Origin: Tieghemostelium lacteum
Taxonomy: Eukaryota
Direction of reading: 5' to 3'
Assembly: GCA_001606155.1 (NCBI GenBank)
Contig: LODT01000035.1
Coordinates: 356,658-420,657, forward strand
Length of the DNA stretch: 64,000 nt
Both the position numbers and the translations under genes were made by a program. The notes under the pieces were generated by a model. It saw nothing but the letters and a program-made list of their open reading frames with translations. It was not told where the DNA came from and ran no database searches. This document shows, one piece after another, positions 7,738 to 26,926 of this stretch. Each line of letters starts with the position of its first letter. The first letter of the stretch is position 1.

Positions 7738-9109
7738 ATGAAAAATCATATTGTATTTTTAGTATTGGTGTTCATTTTAAATTTATATAAACAATGTAAT
7801 GGCATCATTATCAATGATAAAGTAATTTTAGTTATGGCATTTAAAAGGGTTGAAGATTTCAAATTATCATTAGATTCATTAATTAAAGCAAACTATTCAC
7901 AAGATTATCATTTAGTAATAACTCAATCCATATCCCTAGGAGATAGAAGCCACTATATTAAACTACATGATTTTATCAATAATGTAGATATTAAAAATAA
8001 GTTTAAATCTATAACTCACATTGAAACTGAATCTAAATCCTCACTACCATTTGGTAATGCATACCATGCATTTAAAAATATGGTTAGAGGTATGGTTTAT
8101 GTATGGGAGAAATTTAGTGCATTAGATTCACTGATAATCATTGAAGAGGACATAGTAGTATCTGAAGATATATTTGAATTCTTTGAAAAATCTAGAAATA
8201 TAATCAACCAAGACCCATCAAATAGCATTCGTTTAGCAACATCTGCCTATTTTCTACACACCACACATTCATACTATGATTGGAGACTAGATAAACCAAT
8301 TAAACGTAAAACTATTAGAAATGAACTCTCTCTATCCCTACTTAATCCTAAACAAATTGATCAGGTTAAACTTCAAGGTGAGATTGAATTTAAGGTACTT
8401 GCATGGATGTTACATAAATCAATAGCCAAAACAATAATAGATGACTTTAACCAACAAATTCAACCTTGGGTTTTAGAAAATGTAGGTACACATATCACAA
8501 TGCTTACAAAAATCTCTGACTCACTAACACACACACTTTTCAATGAAAATATAGGGAGAAAATATCATTGAAAACAAACCATTTACACCAAAACCAGAAA
8601 TTTTGAAAAACAATTGCGATTGTTGGAATCATGATAGATACTTGGAATTAAGGTTTAGAGATTTCTACTTTTTAGGCTCACAATCACCTAGATGTAACCA
8701 TGTACCTAGTGGAGGTGTTGGTTTAAGTCATCCAGGAGAGGACTATGGTTTTCCACTAAATGAAAACTATACAAGTTCAGATGAATTCTATATTGGTGTG
8801 GTAAATGATGGTGAAAAAGGTATATGGGGATTAGTAAAAGAGTATCTACCTGATGTAGAATGTCCTAATAGAATAGACTGTAATCATTTTAGTACTGGTA
8901 ACAAATGTGGTTCTATTTATAATTCAACATGTCTCAATATATGGAATCTTGAATGTATACCTTGTTCTGGTAGAAAAGTTGAAACTTTCCAACCAATATG
9001 CAACGAAAAGTTCCCTCAATGTTGTGATGGTGTCTGTAATGCTACATCTCCTTTTTTTATTAATATTCCAACACTTTTCAAAGACAATAGTGTTCAACAG
9101 AAAAAATAA
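7738..9109 (+). CDS. GT13-family (GlcNAc-transferase I-like) glycosyltransferase. Catalytic domain ORF is 7738..8571 and the Cys-rich C-terminal ORF is 8603..9109; the two are joined only if one A is restored in the aaaa run near 8558-8566
   Basis: ATG at 7738 followed by a hydrophobic signal anchor (IVFLVLVFILNLY). IIIEEDIVVSEDIFEFFEKS resembles the EDD region of GnT-I, and YYDWRLDKPIKRKTIRNELS resembles [23 protein letters not shown]. The downstream ORF has no ATG at all and opens 16 nt before the upstream stop. Confidence 0.5.
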
Positions 9110-17805: not shown

Positions 17806-18852
17806 TTATTGTTCTTTAACATCACCAATACCATCAGAATAAATACCAAATGGTTTTTCGGATTCTGGTAAACTTGGACTATCATAAATCTTACAAATTC
17901 TCATTTCATCTTTACCTTTTCTTAGTGATAATCTTGTGGTTGAGGCATGGGCCATAATGTGACCACCAATTGGTTTCTTTGGATCTGGATTAAAAAGACC
18001 ACCACCATCTACTTGAGCAACAACTTGATTAGTAATAACAACTGCAATACCAAATTCATCGGCCAGTCTCTGAAGAGTTCTTAGGAATCTTGCCAAGTGT
18101 CTTTGACGATCAGATAACTCTCCTCTACCAGAATAATCAGTACGGTATAAAGCGGTTGCACTATCTACAACCAATAGCGCATAACGACATTCAGCCATCA
18201 TTGCAGATGCCTGAATGAGTAGTTGCATTTGATGATCAGAGTTGTAAGCTCTTGCATAAGAAACATTATCAAGTACATGTTCACCATTTAAACCATATTT
18301 TTCTGCAATTGCCAATAATCTTTCAGGACGAAAAGTTCCTTCTGTATCAATGTATAAAGCTCTACCTTCACCACCACTCTGATTGGCAGGAAGTTGACAA
18401 GTAACACATAATGTGTGGCAAATTTGAGTTTTACCGGTACGGAACTCCCCAAAAAGTTCAGTAATGGATCCGGTTTCAATACCACCATCCAAAAGACTGT
18501 CTAATTCTTTGGATCCTGTGGTGATCTGTAAAAATTGTGAACGTTGTTTATTAAATTCGGTGGCACTGGTGAATCCCATTGGTACCAGTTTACCAGCTTC
18601 TGCTAGTAATTTATCGGCTTTAGTTTCTGTGATGGATTTAACTGCACATAAAGATTTTTTGGTGGCAAATGCAATTGCTTGAACTGTATGAAAACCTGCT
18701 TCTTGAAGTCTTTTAATATCTGCTGCTGAAATACCATTACCCTCTAATTTTGATAATGGTAATGGACCTTCTTCCTCCTCCTCTTCTTCCGCAACTTGTT
18801 CTTGTACTTCTTCTTCTTCTTGAACTTGCTTTTGTTTTTGTTTTGATGCCAT
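17806..18852 (-). CDS. rad51: DNA repair and recombination protein RAD51, single exon, complete
   Basis: N-terminal HhH ([24 protein letters not shown]), Walker A (GEFRTGKTQ), Walker B ([12 protein letters not shown]), and the highly conserved RecA/Rad51 core. 348 aa, ATG-to-TAA. Confidence 0.95.
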
Positions 18853-19189
18853 TTTATTTTGTTATACTAATTCTAGAAAAATTAAAAAAAAAATAATGAG
18901 ATCACACTTTTTTAAAAAATTAATTTTTTTTCTTGGAAATCACTAATCTTTATTAGAAAATTAAAGACAAAAATTGAATACAATGACCTGAGGATGATTT
19001 AAAGGATTTTTATGATAATTTTATATTTTTTATAAGTTTATAAAATAAAGATTAGTTCGTTTCAGATTCATATTTTAGAACATGGTCAGAATTTTCAAAA
19101 TATCTTTTTTTTCCCATTGATGAATCTTTTGATTTGATCAATTGGAGAATATTGTGGATTTCCCGTTCATTTCATCATCTTAGAATATA

Positions 19190-20328
19190 ATGAATAATAA
19201 AATTATTTTATTTCTTATATTAACAATTATTTCATCGGTGCATTCTAATCCACTGCCACTGTATATTATTAATTCATATGATAATTTAACATTGTCAATA
19301 ATTAATCCAAACACTGGTAATCTAACACCTTACCTATCATTAAATCAAAATGAACAAATTGAATACTCAAAGATTCTATATATGAATTCAACAACCATTA
19401 TGGCATTTGGTTCTACTGAAAATTCAGGAGGAGAATTAGTTTATCAATATATTGATATTGTATGTACCAAAAATATTCAATAATTTACATTTAATTATAA
19501 TCTAACAAAGTTATTTAAGGCTAATAATGATAATAGTCAAACTGTATACTACACTCTCCCTGATTTTTTTATCTACTATAACATGCATTTTAATCCAAAT
19601 ACCAATTTAATCTACATGTTAAATGAGACTACTTTAACAATTCAATCTATAAACCCACTTAACTATCAATATACTGGTGACCTTAACATTACATTACCAT
19701 CAGTCCTTTCTCTCGCTTTGGCATTTGGTTATGTTGATACCATTTTAGATAGAAATGAAAACATATTTTATCTTTATGTATCTGTAACCCCATTTGTATG
19801 TACAACATATTGACAAGACAGAACAATTTATAATATTTAACTAATACCTATTTACATTTGTAGCCTGATGGTCTTGAAATTGATTACCAAAATACACAAT
19901 ATCCATGTTCAAAATACCTAGGATGTAACTATTTATTTAGTATTCATTTGGGTTACTATGTGATGGATTCATTGGATTTAGGATTCTTGTTTAAAGAATT
20001 TAACTTTGCTATGGTTATGTCTTCAACCTCGATTCTAGGTTTTACAGGTGTACAGGATACTCCCTATCAAACTGGAACAATCAACATTGTTGATTTTAAT
20101 CCACAAACTGGTAAATCTAAAACTCTTTATAAATCCAAATTGCCAATAGATGTTCAAAGTTTTTCTGCTGATCCACAAAATGGTCTCATTTATCTAATGG
20201 ATATCCCTTATTCCACCTCTGATTGTATACTTTCCACATATAATTACAAATCAAATGATGTAACTTCAATACAAATCCCACCCTCATCGGGGTACATTAT
20301 TAGAGTTGAAGACATTCCTACGAATTAA
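19190..20328 (+). CDS. Secreted protein, paralog A of a tandemly triplicated family with beta-propeller-like repeats. Exons 19190..19459, 19520..19795, 19864..20328 (336 aa)
   Basis: Signal peptide, then the NPLPLY motif. Repeated NPxTG / FNPNTN motifs and VDTILD..ENIFYLY. Donors IDI|gtatgt and PF|gtatgt and acceptors ttaag| and ttgtag| sit at positions conserved across all three paralogs. Introns are 60 and 68 nt. Confidence 0.65.
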
Positions 20329-20533
20329 AGTAAATAGATATTTTGAATAAACTATATTGGTATTTAAATCTACTTTCTTTCCAATAATTAAAGAGATGTT
20401 CATTAATTATTGCCATATTAAATTAAAGATGGGATCATAAAAAAAAAAAAACTACTTCAAAGTAAATTTCTGATAAATATCCAAATTATATAAATATCTT
20501 TTAAGTTTTAGGATTAGTCCATCCATTATAAAA

Positions 20534-21625
20534 ATGAAATTGATTTCGGTATTTGTGACAATATTATTTGTTTTACAAATAAATACAATATGGTCTGCAC
20601 CTCTCCCACTCTATAGTTTTTATAGCCAAGGTTTAGGGATTGATACATTAGACCCAACAACTGGAAAATCACGAAATATCTTTTCCTATGAATCTGATTC
20701 ACAATATGAATATATAAGTGCACAACTCATAAATGAAACTAATGTAATTGCAAGTGTATTAACTAATAATGGATATGCCTACATAACCATTGATTTGGTA
20801 AGTTAAATTAAAAATCTGTGAATTTGTAACATGTGAGTTTCGAAATTAACATTGCCGTCATAGGAATCTAGCACAATAGATTTATTCCCCTACTATCTTC
20901 CAGAGTTTGGATTCCCAAATAGGCCACATTTTAACCCCAACAACAATTTAATATATACACTTAACCAAACAGTTGGTACATTAATTTCAATTGATACCAT
21001 CGATTTCGAACCTAGTGGAAATACCATTATACTTCTTCCATCTGTTATCACATATGCTATGGAGATGGGTTATGTAGACACCATTTTAGATACAACTGAA
21101 AATCTATTTTATATATATATAAATGTTGGACCTTTTGTATGTATTAATCTATACCATTTGATCTTACATTCGATATTAATACATTGAAATACAATATAGC
21201 CACAAGAATTAGACTTTGATGAATATCCATGCTCTCAAATATTAGGTTGTAATTATTTCTTTGTTTATGATTTAAATAATAATGAACTTGTAAATCATAT
21301 TGATTTAAGATTTTGGTTCAAAATATTGACTTTCCTTTCTGTAGAGTCACCAACATCAATTTTGGCATGGGAGGTTTCAAAGAACCAAACTGTTGAAATT
21401 ATAGATTTTAACCCTAAAAGTGGTAGAGTTAATAGTATCTATACAACATATTTACCATTGTATATACAAGGAACTGCTGTTGATATACTAAATAATATAG
21501 TTTACATGTTGGACTTCCCAGGAACTCAGTATACACTTGGCTCATTCAACTATCAAACCAATTCTATAGATTACACAAAGTTTTCAAATATCGCAGGTAC
21601 AGTCCTTAGAGTACAAGACGTTTAG
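20534..21625 (+). CDS. Secreted protein, paralog B of the same family. Exons 20534..20797, 20864..21136, 21200..21625 (321 aa)
   Basis: Signal peptide + APLPLY. IDL|gtaagt and PF|gtatgt donors. Motifs FNPNNNLIY, VDTILDTTENLFYIY, IDFNPKSGR, YPCSQILGCNYFF. Introns are 66 and 63 nt. Confidence 0.65.
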
Positions 21626-21823
21626 TGTATTTCAAAAATTGAATAATTTAGAATATTCATGACATCACGAAATTAAAAAATCATAAAATATCTACCTTTT
21701 CAACTTACTTTTTTTAAAATAAATATCAGGGTTACATAAAACTTTAAAAATCATCTTAATCTTCTGTAAATATCGACAACCAAAAAATTTTTTTTACGTC
21801 ACCAATTGATCAGTGTGCAAATA

Positions 21824-22883
21824 ATGAAATTAATTAGCTTTATCCTTATATTATTACAATTATCTTTTATCTTTTCAGACCCATTGCCATTGTTTATCAA
21901 TACTTTTTATGGTGTAAACATTTCTCTTGTTGATACAACAACTGGATCTGTAAAACCTGTTTATGAAGATTCATCATTTACAAATTCACAATTTGAATTT
22001 AATAGAATCTATTATATTAACTCTACGACCTATTTGGGTGCTGGTGCTTATTCTGAATTGAACTTTTCTTATAAAAATATTGATATGGTATGTATCATTA
22101 CACTTTACAAAAAAATATATATATAACTAATATTAAATTAGAACTACAATAATATTATATCAATAGATTTTAATTGGGAAGATCCTTTGATGAATTCATT
22201 CTTTAACCCCAATACTAATCAAATTTATACATATAATAATACACAAGTGTACTCTAGTGATCCATTTACATTTGAAAGAACAGGTTTAAACATTAATTTA
22301 CCTTCAATTTTTAAATATACATATGAGGTCGGTGTTATTGAAGTAATGCTTGACAGTACAGAAAATATTCTATACTTTTATCTTTTAGTTCCTGAAATCG
22401 TAAGTAATTTTACCTTATATAGAAAATTCAATTAAATCTAATTCATTTTAGCCTGATGTTAAAGTAGATTATAATGAAGGCTTTTATCCATGTGTTTATG
22501 GTATCGGATGTAAATATTTCATTAGCTATAGTATGGATACTGGCAACATGATAAATTCAATAGATTTACATGTCTGGAGTACTACATTTTTTATGATTTT
22601 ACCAATTTCATCAACATCCATCATAGGTGCAACTCAAGATACAAATTCTTACCAATTAACATTTGTGAATTTCAACCCTACCAATGGTGAATTAAAAACA
22701 TTGACAACTACTGAAGGACCATGTCAATTTGTGTTCAGTACAGCTGGTGATAATATTAACCAAATTGTTTATCTATTAGTTAGTGGAAATATTTTAGTAT
22801 CCTATGATGTTAAATCCAATCAAATCAACAATGTCACATTACCTTCAACAGCTGGTCAAATAATACAAGTAGGTAGCTGGTAA
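21824..22883 (+). CDS. Secreted protein, paralog C of the same family. Exons 21824..22087, 22142..22399, 22452..22883 (317 aa)
   Basis: ATG at 21824 with signal peptide MKLISFILILLQLSFIFS + DPLPLF. IDM|gtatgt and EI|gtaagt donors. Motifs FNPNTNQIY, FNPTNGELKTL, YPCVYGIGCKYF. Introns are 54 and 52 nt. Confidence 0.6.
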
Positions 22884-23315: not shown

Positions 23316-23849
23316 TTAATTTTTTTTGGTATTTTCAATTGAAATATATGGAATGAGAATTTCAGTTAATTGTTGATAACATTCCTCTAAATTATCATTT
23401 GATTGATATATAATATTATCAAAGTGATCTGAGGTACAAAATGGTATATCTTCTTTAGCCAAATCTATTAAATATTCAAAAATTTCATTATCTAGATTCT
23501 TTTTTTTTTGATAATCTCTAAATTGCTCTATTGATTTTGAAGTAATACATATAAAAATAGCATTCTTACATGTACCTTCTTGTTTAATAGTTTTACTAGA
23601 CGGGATATCGATAAATATTAGACTTAATTTTCCCATATCTTTTATTCTTTGTAATTCTAATCTACTTAGATATATATTTAATCTTTCATAGAAAACGATA
23701 AAATTTTTCTCTCGAATTTCTCTTTCTAATATGTCTTTAGATATAAAATAATCTTCTGAATTTTTGCCTAGTAACTCTTTTTGTATTTTAGTTGAATGAA
23801 ATTTTACATCAATAAATTTGTCCTGAAAATCTAATTTTAACCTTTCCAT
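23316..23849 (-). CDS. Hypothetical protein with weak similarity to the C-terminal (GMP-binding/lid) part of guanylate kinase; no P-loop detected
   Basis: ATG MERLKL at 23849. LSLIFIDIPS..EQFRDYQKKK..FDNIIYQSNDNLEECYQQLTEIL parallels the guanylate kinase segment IFIFIxPPS..RL..RG..FDxVIVNDDLExAY. I could not find an upstream exon encoding a GxxGxGK loop. Confidence 0.3.
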   Translation of the reverse strand: MERLKLDFQDKFIDVKFHSTKIQKELLGKNSEDYFISKDILEREIREKNFIVFYERLNIYLSRLELQRIKDMGKLSLIFIDIPSSKTIKQEGTCKNAIFICITSKSIEQFRDYQKKKNLDNEIFEYLIDLAKEDIPFCTSDHFDNIIYQSNDNLEECYQQLTEILIPYISIENTKKN

Positions 23850-24671
23850 TACTTTATACCTAATTAGAATTTTTCTAAAATTATTAATTTTTGAACATAC
23901 AATAATCTTGGCAAAGACCAATCAAACCTGTTATAAATATAGGAACTAAATTCATAAAAAAATAATTAATATAATATTGTAGTAAAAAAGAAAAACAACA
24001 AACATTGAATTTTTTAAAAAGGGTTAAACATATTTTTATTTTAAAGTGGGTTTATTTAAATAATTAATTTATAATTGAAATTATTCCTTATGAGTTTTTC
24101 TTCATATTGTGAGAAAGATAAAAATAACATGTGACCTCAGTCAACAATAAAAACTGTTTCATAATTAAACCTTTCCTAATAAAAAAACAAAAAAGTACAA
24201 GAAATGATTTTCAAGAAAAAAACAACTTTTTGGTTATGAAGATTGAAAAATGCGAAATGGATTATTAAATACGCGGTATGGCGAGGGATTCCAAAAGATT
24301 ATTTATATAAAAATAAAAATCTTTTTATAATTATATTTGGTAGAATAGACTCTTCAAGGCCCATTTTATATTCAAAATTGGAGTTTTTATAGATGCTTTG
24401 GAATTGATTGTATCCTATACTTCCAATTTTAGTATCTTATTTTTAATAATTCAATTATTTGTTTTAACAGATAAATAACACTTTAATAAGTAGTGTAAAA
24501 AATTATCATTCACCAAATACTGTTGAATAACTATAACCCTAAATTACTACTATTTTACAAATGAGACTTTATTATTATTTTGTTATGATTCTTATTGATT
24601 AAAATATTTTATTTTTTTTTTGACTTTACTAATATGAGGATTTTTATTCTTCTTGTAAAAATATATATTTT

Positions 24672-26926
24672 TTAATTTGAACAAGTTGGTTGATATTTAC
24701 ATTTTTGGGAGGTGGTAAGAACTAGGATACAACGATGAGGAGATTTACATGTTATATCAGCACAGGTAATACAATAATCTTGTTTAACACATTTAAAGAT
24801 TTGATTTGACTCTTCTTTACAATCATAACCTAAAGCACATGAATTTTGCAAACATGATCCACATTGATACTCATCAAATTCATTTACACAGATATGAGAA
24901 TCTGGTAAACATATTTGTCCTCCTGTGCAAATGCAATCATTTTTTTGTAGAACTTGAGTAGATGTAACAGTAGATAGCGATGTTGTTCCAGCAGTTGAAG
25001 TGACTGGTGGGGCTGGTGATGGTGTAGCAGTAGTACTTGTTGTAGCAGATGTAGTAGATGTACTGGCTGTAGTAGTACTAGTTGTAGCAGTACTAGTTGT
25101 AGCAGGGTCTGTTGTTGTAGCTGGTTTGGTGGATGTTGTGGTTATGGTTGGATTAGTTGTAAATATTTTAATTGTATCATTAATTATATTTAAATATGAA
25201 ATTGAAATTGTAGCAATGGATGAATTTCTATTTGTTTTAAACAAGACATTGGACAGACTTTGTAAAAAATTTGGATCTCTTTTGGTATTAAATACTTGTA
25301 GCTCACCATTTGAAATACTAACAACATCAGATGAAGTAGTGTTAGATGATGAAAATGATAATTGATCAGATGGATCAATACTATCCAAAACTTTAAAAGT
25401 AATGAATTGAACATTACAAGCAGAAGAATATGGATGAAAATTAGATTCTAAGAAACGATATTCACCATTGGGGTTATAGGCAATAGAGGTATTAATGATA
25501 TTCAACGATGCTGAGATTATAGTTTTTTCACCAAATAAAATATAATTCGTATGATTACTTTTAAATTGTAAAATTAAATCTTGAATACCATCATTATTAA
25601 AATCAGTCCAAGCTGAAAAACTAAATGCCGAGTATAATATTATAAAACCTCTACAATCACCAAATAATGGAGATGTTTTGATATCCAAATCATAAACAGC
25701 AGGTAATTTCATGGTGGTTCCATATACTCCCCAAGTAATTTGATAATTATAATCATTGCATGATATATCGGATATACCATCTCCATTAATATCTCCAACA
25801 TACATAGAGGTGCAAAATTTTTGAGGTGAAGAAATATCTCTGACCCATTTAACAACTTCAGATGAGTTACCACTGTTGATATCAAAATGAGATTCCCAAT
25901 TTCCACCTTTTTTACCATAAATCATATAAATTGAATTTGAATCATTACTAGCTACAGCCAAATCTTGTAATCCATCACCATTTAAGTCACCAAAACCAAT
26001 CTGAAGTGCATAGTCGAAAAAAATAGCCTCCATTTTAATTGTAAAACCAGTTGTACCATTTAATACTGGATTATATGGATTTGGATAAATTTTTACACCA
26101 AAACTAACAGTACCATTATCAGTATCCGAAAGTATTACTAAATCATCAATTCCATCATTATTCAAATCTCCACAACCAAGTTTTATAGAATGATCCTTAT
26201 TCATTATATGTCCATATGTTCCATTTGATACAAAGTTAGAATCAAATTTACCAGAATTGGTTGGAAACTTTTTACCATTATCAAGTCCATAGAGAACATA
26301 AATATCATCTCTGGTATTAAATATTAAATCTTTTATACCATCTCCATTACGATCGCATAAAACTTGAAATGAAGAGAAGTAGGCATGGAGAATATAAGAA
26401 GAATCAATTTCAAATCCATCAATTCCATCAAAAGTTGAAAAATCATTCTTAAATGGTCCTGCATGACCATAAATTATTTTTAATTGATTTTTTGTTGTAC
26501 GAAATATAATTTCATCATATCCATCATCATTTATATCTCCACATATAAAGTAATTCCGAAGATCTGTTATTTTAAAGTCAATACTGAAACCATTGACTCC
26601 ATCAATCATTGAAGCTGTTAAAGGTCTTTGGCCACCATATCTTGAGATATCACCAAAAAATACATATATTTTATTGGTTTGATAATTTGATATTATAAAA
26701 TCCTAATATTATATTTTGGTTAGAGTATATTTAAATACACTATATAAATTTCAACTTAAAAACCCACTTGTTTACCATCACCATTAAAATCAAAACCTCC
26801 AGTTTTAAATTCATAAAAAAATTCTAAACCATAACTATTAGTATCATTAAGTAAATTCTCTGATGATGGGAAACCAATATTTATAGATATCTTTAGAAAT
26901 AAAATTAGTAAGATAAATTTATACAT
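24672..26926 (-). CDS. Secreted FG-GAP/VCBS-repeat beta-propeller protein with a Thr-rich mucin-like linker and a C-terminal Cys-rich EGF-like module. Exons 26926..26768 and 26702..24672 (730 aa)
   Basis: Signal peptide MYKFILLILFLKISINIG. Repeated Ca-binding-like loops DxNxDGxxD (FDFNGDGKQDFII, GDINDDGYDEIIF, CDRNGDGIKDLIF, GDLNNDGIDDLVI, GDLNGDGLQDLAV, GDINGDGISDI, TDFNNDGIQDLIL). T/S/P-rich linker, then a 16-Cys tail. 65-nt intron (gtgggt donor, unusual). Confidence 0.7.

What the first reader, a model, noticed from the sequence alone, without database searches (positions are those of the whole stretch)
19190..22883. Tandem triplication of a novel three-exon secreted gene family with beta-propeller-like NPxTG repeats
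Three head-to-tail paralogs (19190-20328, 20534-21625, 21824-22883) share a signal peptide followed by (N/A/D)PLPL(Y/F). They carry repeated motifs (FNPNTNxIY, IDFNPxTG(K/R), VDTILDxxENIFYLY) and a conserved YPC...GCxYF Cys pair. The splice donors IDx|gtatgt and P(F/I)|gta(t/a)gt fall at identical positions. The ~40-residue internal periodicity with conserved Gly/Asp/Tyr resembles YVTN-type beta-propeller blades. Protein identity among the copies is only ~30-40%, yet the intron positions are fully conserved, which implies an old local duplication kept under selection. I cannot place this family among described Dictyostelium protein families by eye. As secreted putative propellers in a bacterivorous or aggregative amoeba they could be lectins, adhesion factors or antibacterial proteins.
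Basis: partly seen in the sequence, partly recalled or inferred. Interest (0 to 1): 0.7.

Follow-up and report, generated by a model that had tools for sequence, protein, structure and literature searches.

The report
Tandem secreted six-bladed propeller genes
Three neighbouring genes of the social amoeba Tieghemostelium lacteum encode fast-evolving secreted proteins that are predicted to fold as six-bladed beta-propellers; the family has no known function, is found only in dictyostelids, and is real but fairly ordinary.

Summary
Window 19190-22883 carries three head-to-tail, three-exon genes. They are identical to the GenBank models DLAC_07862, DLAC_07864 and DLAC_07865 of Tieghemostelium (Dictyostelium) lacteum, all annotated as 'hypothetical protein'.

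- **Proteins:** The products are 34-38% identical. Each has a signal peptide, conserved N-glycosylation sequons, a conserved CxxxxGC cysteine pair and NPxTG turns.
- **Introns:** Both introns are phase 0 and sit at the same alignment columns as two introns of the Cavenderia fasciculata homologue.
- **Family:** Pfam, NCBIfam and PDB profile searches find nothing. An exhaustive profile search of 1.8 billion proteins finds only dictyostelid relatives and no D. discoideum hit.
- **Expression:** Published data put DLAC_07862 and the paralogue DLAC_07344 at their peak in feeding cells (0 h).
The '~40-residue periodicity' is wrong; blades are about 50 residues and the internal repeat signal is weak.

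My best reading is non-enzymatic, lectin-like binding proteins of feeding amoebae, with variable loops on the presumed ligand-binding face. That function is inferred, not shown. Interest is modest.

The parts
19190..20328 (+). Gene g1 = DLAC_07862 (336 aa). Exons 19190-19459, 19520-19795 and 19864-20328 (stop included). Introns 19460-19519 and 19796-19863, both phase 0.
   Evidence: Splicing enumeration. The model is 100% identical to the deposited protein P0001. Published expression peaks at 32.8 TPM at 0 h.
20534..21625 (+). Gene g2 = DLAC_07864 (320 aa). Exons 20534-20797, 20864-21136 and 21200-21625. Introns 20798-20863 (gtaagt donor) and 21137-21199 (gtatgt donor), both phase 0.
   Evidence: Identical to P0002.
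21824..22883 (+). Gene g3 = DLAC_07865 (317 aa). Exons 21824-22087, 22142-22399 and 22452-22883. Introns 22088-22141 (gtatgt donor) and 22400-22451 (gtaagt donor), both phase 0.
   Evidence: Identical to P0003. Its closest relative is the dispersed paralogue DLAC_10558, at 44% identity.
19190..19246 (+). Signal-peptide coding part of g1 (MNNKIILFLILTIISSVHS), followed by NPLPLY. The equivalent segments are 20534-20596 in g2 and 21824-21877 in g3.
   Evidence: This is the only hydrophobic segment of each protein (maximum Kyte-Doolittle 19-residue window 1.7-2.0, at residues 1-7). Small residues sit at -3/-1, and there is no C-terminal hydrophobic tail. The cleavage site was read by eye; SignalP was not available.
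19906..19932 (+). Codons of the family hallmark YPCSKYLGC in g1 (C197 and C203). The same motif lies at 21236-21262 in g2 (Cys190/Cys196) and at 22485-22511 in g3 (Cys188/Cys194). I computed these coordinates from the exon maps.
   Evidence: C203 is invariant and C197 is present in 8 of 9 family members. That the two cysteines form a disulphide is an inference.
20095..20112 (+). Codons of the NPQTGK hairpin turn of predicted blade 5 in g1 (N261, P262 and G265 are invariant across the family).
18853..19189 (.). Intergenic region shared by the divergently transcribed Rad51 gene (17806-18852, minus strand) and g1. It is the presumed promoter of g1. The inter-paralogue spacers 20329-20533 and 21626-21823 would hold the promoters of g2 and g3.
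   Evidence: ORF map and the Pfam Rad51 hit. No promoter analysis was done.

Best explanation
**Shown.** The region holds three intact, tandemly duplicated genes of Tieghemostelium lacteum. Each encodes a single-domain protein of about 34-36 kDa that is acidic (pI about 4). Each has an N-terminal signal peptide, conserved N-glycosylation sequons and no membrane anchor. The predicted fold is a six-bladed, 24-strand beta-propeller. The family is restricted to dictyostelids and evolves fast.
- T. lacteum has five members: this array plus DLAC_10558 and DLAC_07344.
- C. fasciculata and H. album each gave one hit.
- Two more sequences come from unnamed EukProt species.
- No D. discoideum hit was detected.

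**Inferred mechanism.** The proteins enter the secretory pathway and act outside the cell or in the endo-lysosomal/phagosomal lumen of feeding amoebae. They work as non-enzymatic binding modules. A conserved scaffold (strands, tight NPxTG-type A-B and C-D turns, a CxxxxGC mini-loop) displays hypervariable B-C and D-A loops on the face that propellers normally use for ligands. Tandem duplication followed by divergence would give several binding specificities. The most plausible targets are surface glycans or other polymers of prey bacteria (lectin-like recognition, agglutination or capture).
For: - **Gene models and identity:**
- **Secretory features:** a hydrophobic N-terminus only, 3-5 sequons of which two are conserved (N66-S-T and N125-x-T), and pI 4.05. 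Signal peptides are also present in DLAC_10558, DLAC_07344 and DFA_04745, and in PPL_06012 once it is re-spliced.
- **No catalytic signature:** family-conserved residues are G, P, N, Y, C, S/T and two turn aspartates. There is no conserved His, Glu, Arg or Lys.
- **Loop pattern:** A-B and C-D loops have mean pairwise identity 0.34 and 9% gaps. B-C and D-A loops have 0.17 and 33%.
- **Feeding-stage expression:** DLAC_07862 has tau 0.90 and a maximum of 32.8 TPM at 0 h (vegetative growth). The paralogue DLAC_07344 has tau 0.93 and 63.5 TPM at 0 h (PMC8535579 Table S5).
- **Purifying selection on the scaffold:** all reading frames are intact at about 35% identity, and intron positions and phases are shared with C. 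fasciculata.
- **Functional analogue:** the top structural match is a diversified six-bladed propeller lectin that recognises bacterial cell-wall teichuronic acid (PMC13274773).
Against: - No ligand, localisation or phenotype is known.
- The structural matches are fold-level only (5-15% identity) and spread over dozens of families, including enzymes. The lectin analogy is therefore suggestive, not diagnostic.
- The blade register behind the 'top face' and 'bottom face' labels was inferred from the order of DSSP strands, not from coordinates.
- Expression data were found for g1 and a distant paralogue only, not for g2 or g3. The stored supplementary table is truncated.
- The signal peptide was judged by eye and hydrophobicity, not by SignalP.
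- Absence from D. discoideum rests on a profile built from only three sequences.
Confidence: 0.45

Rival explanations
1. The proteins are secreted or lysosomal enzymes built on a six-bladed propeller, such as a lactonase (SGL/PON-like), sialidase or glycosidase, polysaccharide lyase or sulfotransferase-like enzyme. They would digest bacterial envelope material during feeding.
Against: No conserved His, Glu, Arg or Lys is found, and only two aspartates are conserved, both at hairpin turns. There are no Asp-box motifs, no SGL, Str_synth, BNR or Arylesterase Pfam hits even at E <= 10, and no NCBIfam hit. The loops around the presumed active face are the least conserved part of the protein, which is unusual for an enzyme family.
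Confidence: 0.15
2. The proteins are extracellular matrix, adhesion or self-recognition components of the multicellular stage (slime sheath, stalk or spore coat, or kin recognition).
For: They are secreted, glycosylated, lineage-specific and tandemly expanded. In dictyostelids such genes are often developmental. Lineage-specific expansions are enriched among stage-biased genes (PMC8535579).
Against: The two family members with data peak at 0 h (vegetative growth), with tau of 0.9 or more. They are therefore largely switched off during aggregation and fruiting. There is no membrane anchor, no cellulose-binding or EGF/Cys-rich modules of the kind typical of sheath and spore-coat proteins, and only 2-3 cysteines.
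Confidence: 0.12
3. The array consists of decaying, functionless duplicates, or of over-predicted gene models.
For: Identity between copies is low and no function is known. g2 and g3 have no expression record in the material I could read.
Against: All three reading frames are intact across three exons, with canonical donors and acceptors and preserved phase. Structural core residues, sequons and the Cys pair are conserved across five T. lacteum paralogues and other genera. The sequences fold confidently in silico. g1 is expressed.
Confidence: 0.04

Closest known systems
UmbA C-terminal six-bladed beta-propeller lectins of Streptomyces umbrella toxin particles (PDB 9oee chain A; families 6BP-2 and 6BP-4 in PMC13274773)
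   Different: Sequence identity is 5-8%, and no sequence profile links the two. UmbA propellers are C-terminal modules of multidomain bacterial proteins (trypsin-like domain plus bulb lectin) and have Ca-binding loops. The amoeba proteins are stand-alone, eukaryotic, intron-containing and carry a CxxxxGC pair. Carbohydrate binding is untested here.
YWTD (LDL-receptor class B) six-bladed propellers: LDLR, LRP4/6, nidogen, ROS1/Sevenless
   Different: There is no Ldl_recept_b Pfam match, no YWTD motif and no flanking EGF domain. YWTD propellers are an animal family.
Kelch-repeat six-bladed propellers (Keap1, KLHL/KBTBD proteins)
   Same: These are the best Foldseek matches (TM 0.57-0.66). One blade of the H. 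album homologue PPL_06012 scores 22.6 bits against Kelch_1, whose cut-off is 20.1.
   Different: None of the three window proteins, nor any other member, matches a Kelch model. There is no GG/Y/W kelch signature. Kelch proteins are mostly intracellular.
YVTN / YncE-type propellers (archaeal S-layer YVTN domain 1l0q; Bacteroides BtuG)
   Same: The consensus of blades 5-6 ('v.fNP.tG....l......v...a.D..n.iYl......l..Yn..sn') reads like the YVTN pattern. BtuG/YncE proteins give the highest sequence identity among the fold hits, at 14-16%. Repeat units of a giant prokaryote-like protein (P0009) match blades 5-6.
   Different: YVTN/YncE propellers are seven-bladed with a period of about 40 residues. 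Here there are six blades of about 50 residues. No Pfam or NCBIfam YVTN or lactonase model matches.
Tectonins of Physarum polycephalum and tachylectin-type propeller lectins (recalled from my own knowledge, not retrieved here)
   Same: They are amoebozoan or innate-immune beta-propeller lectins proposed to bind bacterial surface glycans during phagocytosis. This is the same proposed biology.
   Different: There is no Tectonin/TECPR Pfam hit. The repeat length and motifs differ. As I recall, tectonins have no signal peptide.

Membership tests
Beta-propeller fold, six-bladed (structural class) | Six four-stranded antiparallel sheets arranged around a central axis, with ring closure by terminal strands | tested here: met
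Kelch repeat (Pfam PF01344, PF07646, PF13964 and related models) | Several blades matching a Kelch HMM above the gathering score | tested here: not met
   No Kelch hit at E <= 10 in g1, g2 or g3. Only one blade of PPL_06012 reaches 22.6 bits.
YVTN / lactonase / YncE seven-bladed propellers (PF10282, TIGR02276) | Repeats of about 40 residues matching the YVTN or lactonase models; seven blades | tested here: not met
   No Pfam or NCBIfam match in any of the 9 members. The model has six blades of about 50 residues. Foldseek similarity to 1l0q and BtuG is fold-level only.
YWTD / LDL-receptor class B (PF00058) | Six YWTD repeats matching PF00058, usually followed by an EGF domain | tested here: not met
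   No Pfam hit and no EGF domain. The structural similarity is at fold level only.
NHL, SGL/SMP-30, PQQ, WD40, TolB/PD40, Tectonin, BNR/sialidase and DUF5122 repeat families | A match to the respective Pfam repeat or domain model | tested here: not met
   hmmscan against Pfam-A at E <= 10 returns none of these for any family member. Caveat: HMMER's filters drop most very weak matches, and no HHsearch-type profile-profile search against Pfam or PDB was available.
Propeller lectins (functional class) | Demonstrated carbohydrate binding in pockets between or on the blades | not testable with these tools
Classical secretory proteins | A cleavable N-terminal signal peptide, no other hydrophobic segment, and N-glycosylation sequons | tested here: met
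   Hydropathy and sequon analysis, with conservation of the signal peptide in the paralogues and orthologues. No dedicated predictor (SignalP) could be run.

The most novel reading that the evidence does not exclude
The family is a dictyostelid invention, or a derivative diverged beyond recognition: a set of diversifying secreted propeller lectins that feeding amoebae use to recognise, agglutinate or opsonise different prey bacteria. On this reading it is a simple eukaryotic counterpart of diversified bacterial lectin propellers such as UmbA. It would have expanded by tandem duplication in T. lacteum and been lost in the D. discoideum lineage.
Probability: 0.3. Interest if true: 0.5.

Novelty: new member of a known kind. 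Interest (0 to 1): 0.3.

Why it matters
If the binding-protein reading is right, the family would be a lineage-specific set of prey-recognition molecules in social amoebae. It would also be an example of how tandem duplication plus loop diversification on a propeller scaffold generates new specificities.

In practice the result does three things.
- It gives a fold and a testable hypothesis to five 'hypothetical' T. lacteum genes and their homologues.
- It shows that genes called 'lineage-specific singletons' by orthology clustering (PMC8535579) in fact belong to one old family shared by at least three dictyostelid genera.
- It flags a likely mis-spliced model (PPL_06012).

It does not bear on a long-standing open question, and the model species D. 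discoideum seems to lack the family, which limits how easily it can be tested.

Tried and rejected
- **Family libraries.** Pfam-A scans of the three proteins and of all nine family members at E <= 10 gave only noise, plus one Kelch blade in PPL_06012. The NCBIfam scan gave noise only.
- **PDB sequence profile.** The only hit was a dipeptidyl aminopeptidase at E = 0.4, which is not meaningful.
- **Word-indexed homologue search.** This tool was lossy for this family. With g1 it returned only g1 and g2. With the nine-sequence alignment it returned only three of its own members. I therefore gave its negative results no weight and did not spend the third search.
- **AFDB Foldseek.** The library was not available.
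- **Internal repeats.** hhalign self-comparison gave P >= 0.02, so the idea of a clear sequence repeat was rejected.
- **tRNA or other gene for the missing locus tag DLAC_07863.** Nothing was found between the paralogues.
- **Genomic loci of DLAC_10558 and DLAC_07344.** They are not on record, so their intron positions and neighbours could not be checked.
- **Literature.** No paper in the library names these locus tags. The supplements of PMC4931340 and PMC5282741 do not list them. A text search for Dictyostelium secreted propeller lectins found nothing relevant.
- **Synteny.** The C. fasciculata and H. album homologues have unrelated neighbours and no tandem copies within 8 kb on either side.
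- **dN/dS.** I did not attempt it, because at about 35% protein identity synonymous sites are saturated.
Full report
**1. What is in the sequence**

The region 19190-22883 contains three head-to-tail genes on the + strand. Each candidate gene has two GTA[TA]GT donors. I enumerated every GT...AG combination that keeps an open frame. This gave one sensible model per gene:

| Gene | Exons | Length | Introns |
|---|---|---|---|
| g1 | 19190-19459 / 19520-19795 / 19864-20328 | 336 aa | 60 and 68 nt |
| g2 | 20534-20797 / 20864-21136 / 21200-21625 | 320 aa | 66 and 63 nt |
| g3 | 21824-22087 / 22142-22399 / 22452-22883 | 317 aa | 54 and 52 nt |

All six introns are phase 0. The three models are residue-for-residue identical to deposited proteins of Tieghemostelium (formerly Dictyostelium) lacteum: DLAC_07862, DLAC_07864 and DLAC_07865. 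All three are named 'hypothetical protein' and lie on a 1.54 Mb contig.

**2. Is the similarity real and how old is it?**

- The proteins are 34-38% identical over their full length.
- tblastn between copies gives E-values of 1e-23 to 1e-48, and no further copy exists in the 64 kb window.
- At DNA level only the most conserved coding blocks are still recognisable. These are the FNPNTN block, the VDTILD..EN..Y block running into the second donor, and the YPC..GC block. They show 67-76% identity with 1272-1341 bp spacing.
- This is an old duplication, not a recent one.
- The array is flanked by ordinary genes. Upstream are a DDX1-like DEAD/SPRY helicase, a SET-domain protein and Rad51. Downstream are a guanylate-kinase-like ORF and an FG-GAP repeat protein.

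**3. Protein features**

- Each product starts with a hydrophobic leader, which is the only hydrophobic segment. The leader is followed by (N/A/D)PLPL(Y/F).
- The mature chains are 34-36 kDa and very acidic (pI about 4.05).
- They carry 3-5 N-x-S/T sequons. Two of these are conserved in all three copies (N66-S/E-T and N125-x-T in g1 numbering).
- They have 2-3 cysteines, including the conserved pair C197/C203 in YPCxxxxGCxY.
- There is no C-terminal hydrophobic tail, so no transmembrane or GPI anchor is expected.
- These features point to soluble proteins of the secretory pathway. This is inference from sequence; no dedicated predictor was available.

**4. The family elsewhere**

A profile of the three proteins was scored against all 1.84 billion representative proteins. 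It found only 11 hits (identified):

| Hit | Source | E-value | Comment |
|---|---|---|---|
| g1, g2, g3 | T. lacteum array | - | the queries themselves |
| DLAC_10558 | T. lacteum, other contig | 1e-79 | 44% identical to g3 |
| DLAC_07344 | T. lacteum | 4e-25 | distant paralogue |
| DFA_04745 | Cavenderia fasciculata | 4e-10 | single copy |
| PPL_06012 | Heterostelium album | 2e-4 | single copy |
| P0005 | unnamed EukProt species | - | looks like a merged gene: TTI1 + propeller |
| P0008 | unnamed EukProt species | - | looks like a merged gene: FNIP repeats + C-terminal half |
| P0009 | 4848-aa prokaryote-like giant protein | - | matches at blade level only |
| P0010 | - | - | a junk repeat |

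No D. discoideum or D. purpureum protein was found. The more distant group 1 and group 2 species were detected, so loss in group 4 is the simplest reading. This rests on a three-sequence profile.

OrthoFinder-based work had classed DLAC_07862 and DLAC_07344 as separate 'lineage-specific' singletons (PMC8535579 Table S5). The present profile links them into one family.

The C. fasciculata and H. album genes have unrelated neighbours and no tandem copies within 8 kb on either side. The triplication is therefore specific to the T. lacteum lineage.

**5. Intron conservation**

- Exact exon mapping of DFA_04745 gives phase-0 introns after residues 25, 94 and 194.
- In the family alignment the second and third fall at exactly the columns of the two T. 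lacteum introns (IDI|x and ..F/Y|P/Q).
- The H. album gene has an intron after its signal peptide and one within three codons of the first T. lacteum intron. It lacks the last intron.
- The ancestral gene thus probably had three phase-0 introns.

**6. Fold**

- With only the three paralogues as alignment, AlphaFold2 gave pLDDT 70.8 and pTM 0.71.
- With nine family members it gave pLDDT 79.8 and pTM 0.81. All five models scored 75.7-79.8. The model is all-beta with 23-24 strands, which corresponds to six four-stranded blades of about 50 residues.
- Foldseek agrees, with Keap1 and TolB at TM 0.55-0.66 and BtuG/YncE proteins at 14-16% identity.
- The score list is flat and identities are 5-15%. 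This establishes the fold class but no family.

**7. Repeats**

- (D/N)PxxG motifs occur 3-6 times per protein. In the model they sit in the tight A-B and C-D hairpin turns.
- Self-comparison of the family profile gives only weak internal matches (P 0.02-0.1).
- The blades are about 50 residues, not 40.
- The consensus of blades 5-6 does read like a YVTN-type blade, and units of the giant protein P0009 match it. No YVTN, lactonase or PQQ model in Pfam or NCBIfam scores, however.

**8. Known-family tests**

- Pfam-A at E <= 10 returns nothing meaningful for g1-g3.
- Across all members, the only hit above a curated cut-off is a single Kelch_1 blade in PPL_06012, at 22.6 bits against a cut-off of 20.1.
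- A family profile against all PDB sequences finds nothing.
- The family is therefore an unclassified, dictyostelid-restricted sequence family with a common fold.

**9. Clues to function**

(a) *Expression.* In PMC8535579 Table S5 (dictyExpress data, 0 h = vegetative growth), DLAC_07862 has tau 0.90, mean 9.1 TPM and a maximum of 32.8 TPM at 0 h. The paralogue DLAC_07344 has tau 0.93 and a maximum of 63.5 TPM at 0 h. I found no record for g2 or g3. The table lists only the top 5% of tau values and is truncated in the stored copy.

(b) *Conserved residues.* Residues conserved across the family are Gly, Pro, Asn, Tyr, Cys, Ser/Thr and two turn aspartates. No His, Glu, Arg or Lys is conserved. 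This argues against a catalytic or metal centre.

(c) *Loop pattern.* I assigned strands to blades by their order, with the N-terminal strand closing blade 6.
- The A-B and C-D loops are short and conserved (mean pairwise identity 0.34, 9% gaps).
- The B-C and D-A loops are hypervariable and rich in indels (0.17, 33% gaps).
- The B-C and D-A loops form the face that propellers usually use for ligands.
- The register is inferred, because coordinates cannot be inspected with these tools.

(d) *Structural analogue.* The best structural match is a diversified propeller lectin that recognises bacterial cell-wall teichuronic acid (PMC13274773).

**10. Interpretation**

Together these points favour secreted or phagosomal-lumen, non-enzymatic binding proteins of feeding amoebae. 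On this reading a conserved six-bladed scaffold carries a diversifying binding face, and tandem duplication multiplied the specificities. I put this at about 0.45.

The rivals are:
- a propeller enzyme (0.15), which is disfavoured by the lack of conserved polar residues;
- a developmental matrix or adhesion role (0.12), which is disfavoured by the 0 h expression peak;
- non-functional duplicates (0.04), which are disfavoured by the intact frames, the conserved core and the expression of g1.

**11. Novelty and interest**

- The genes are already in GenBank as hypothetical proteins, and one is listed in a published table as lineage-specific.
- New here are the family definition across genera, the fold assignment, the intron conservation and a functional hypothesis.
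- The fold is among the commonest known, and lineage-specific secreted tandem families are common in dictyostelids.
- I rate it a new member of a known kind, with modest interest (0.3).

Noticed in passing
L002 8001-8140 (Heterostelium album PPL_06012): The deposited model joins MKHLF directly to NIDNG, using a GTATTT donor at 8016, and so lacks a signal peptide. An in-frame canonical GTATGT donor at 8070 would give exon 1 = MKHLFVFLIIPYLFICSFSLSIS. That is a typical signal peptide followed by a phase-0 intron, as in C. fasciculata DFA_04745. The deposited model is probably mis-spliced.
   Followed up: partly
P0005 (877 aa) and P0008 (676 aa), EukProt entries gene5986-7458_t and gene704-872_t: Two family members from an unnamed EukProt species appear as fusions. 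One is a TTI1 TPR domain plus a full propeller. The other is FNIP repeats plus the C-terminal half of the propeller. They are most likely merged neighbouring genes rather than real domain fusions.
   Followed up: partly
P0009 (4848 aa, NCBI/ENA; no window coordinates): A giant prokaryote-like surface protein carries DUF5122, OLF, Reg_prop and ice-binding-like adhesin domains. It contains at least six units, one per roughly 240-500 residues between positions 1239 and 3512, that resemble blades 5-6 of the amoeba family ('i..fnP.tG....l....pf.v...a.D.dn.iyy......l..Yn'). This is the only non-dictyostelid link found and a possible hint to the ancestry of the blades.
   Followed up: partly
window 24672-26609 (-): A 645-aa single-exon ORF has FG-GAP repeats (another propeller type, integrin-alpha-like), followed by a Thr/Ser/Pro-rich mucin-like stretch and a Cys-rich C-terminus. 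It lies about 1.8 kb downstream of the array on the opposite strand and is unrelated in sequence to the array proteins.
   Followed up: partly
window 20329-20533: The locus tags jump from DLAC_07862 to DLAC_07864. The 205-bp spacer between g1 and g2 holds no ORF of 30 aa or more that looks like a gene, and no tRNA. What DLAC_07863 was is unexplained; it may be a withdrawn model.
   Followed up: partly
window 19460-19519 (g1 intron 1): An alternative in-frame acceptor AG at 19509-19510 would give exon 2 starting at 19511. It would add three residues (LFK) without breaking the frame, so it is a possible minor splice variant.
   Followed up: no
window 17806-18852 (-) and 18853-19189: An intronless Rad51 orthologue (Pfam Rad51, 437 bits) is transcribed divergently from g1. 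Only 337 bp of AT-rich DNA (22% GC) separate the two start codons. A recombination housekeeping gene and a growth-stage secreted-protein gene therefore share a very short bidirectional promoter region.
   Followed up: no
window 23316-23921 (-): A 201-aa ORF immediately downstream of g3 gives a weak guanylate-kinase domain hit (31.9 bits). Its TTG 'start' in the ORF list suggests that the real gene has upstream exons.
   Followed up: no
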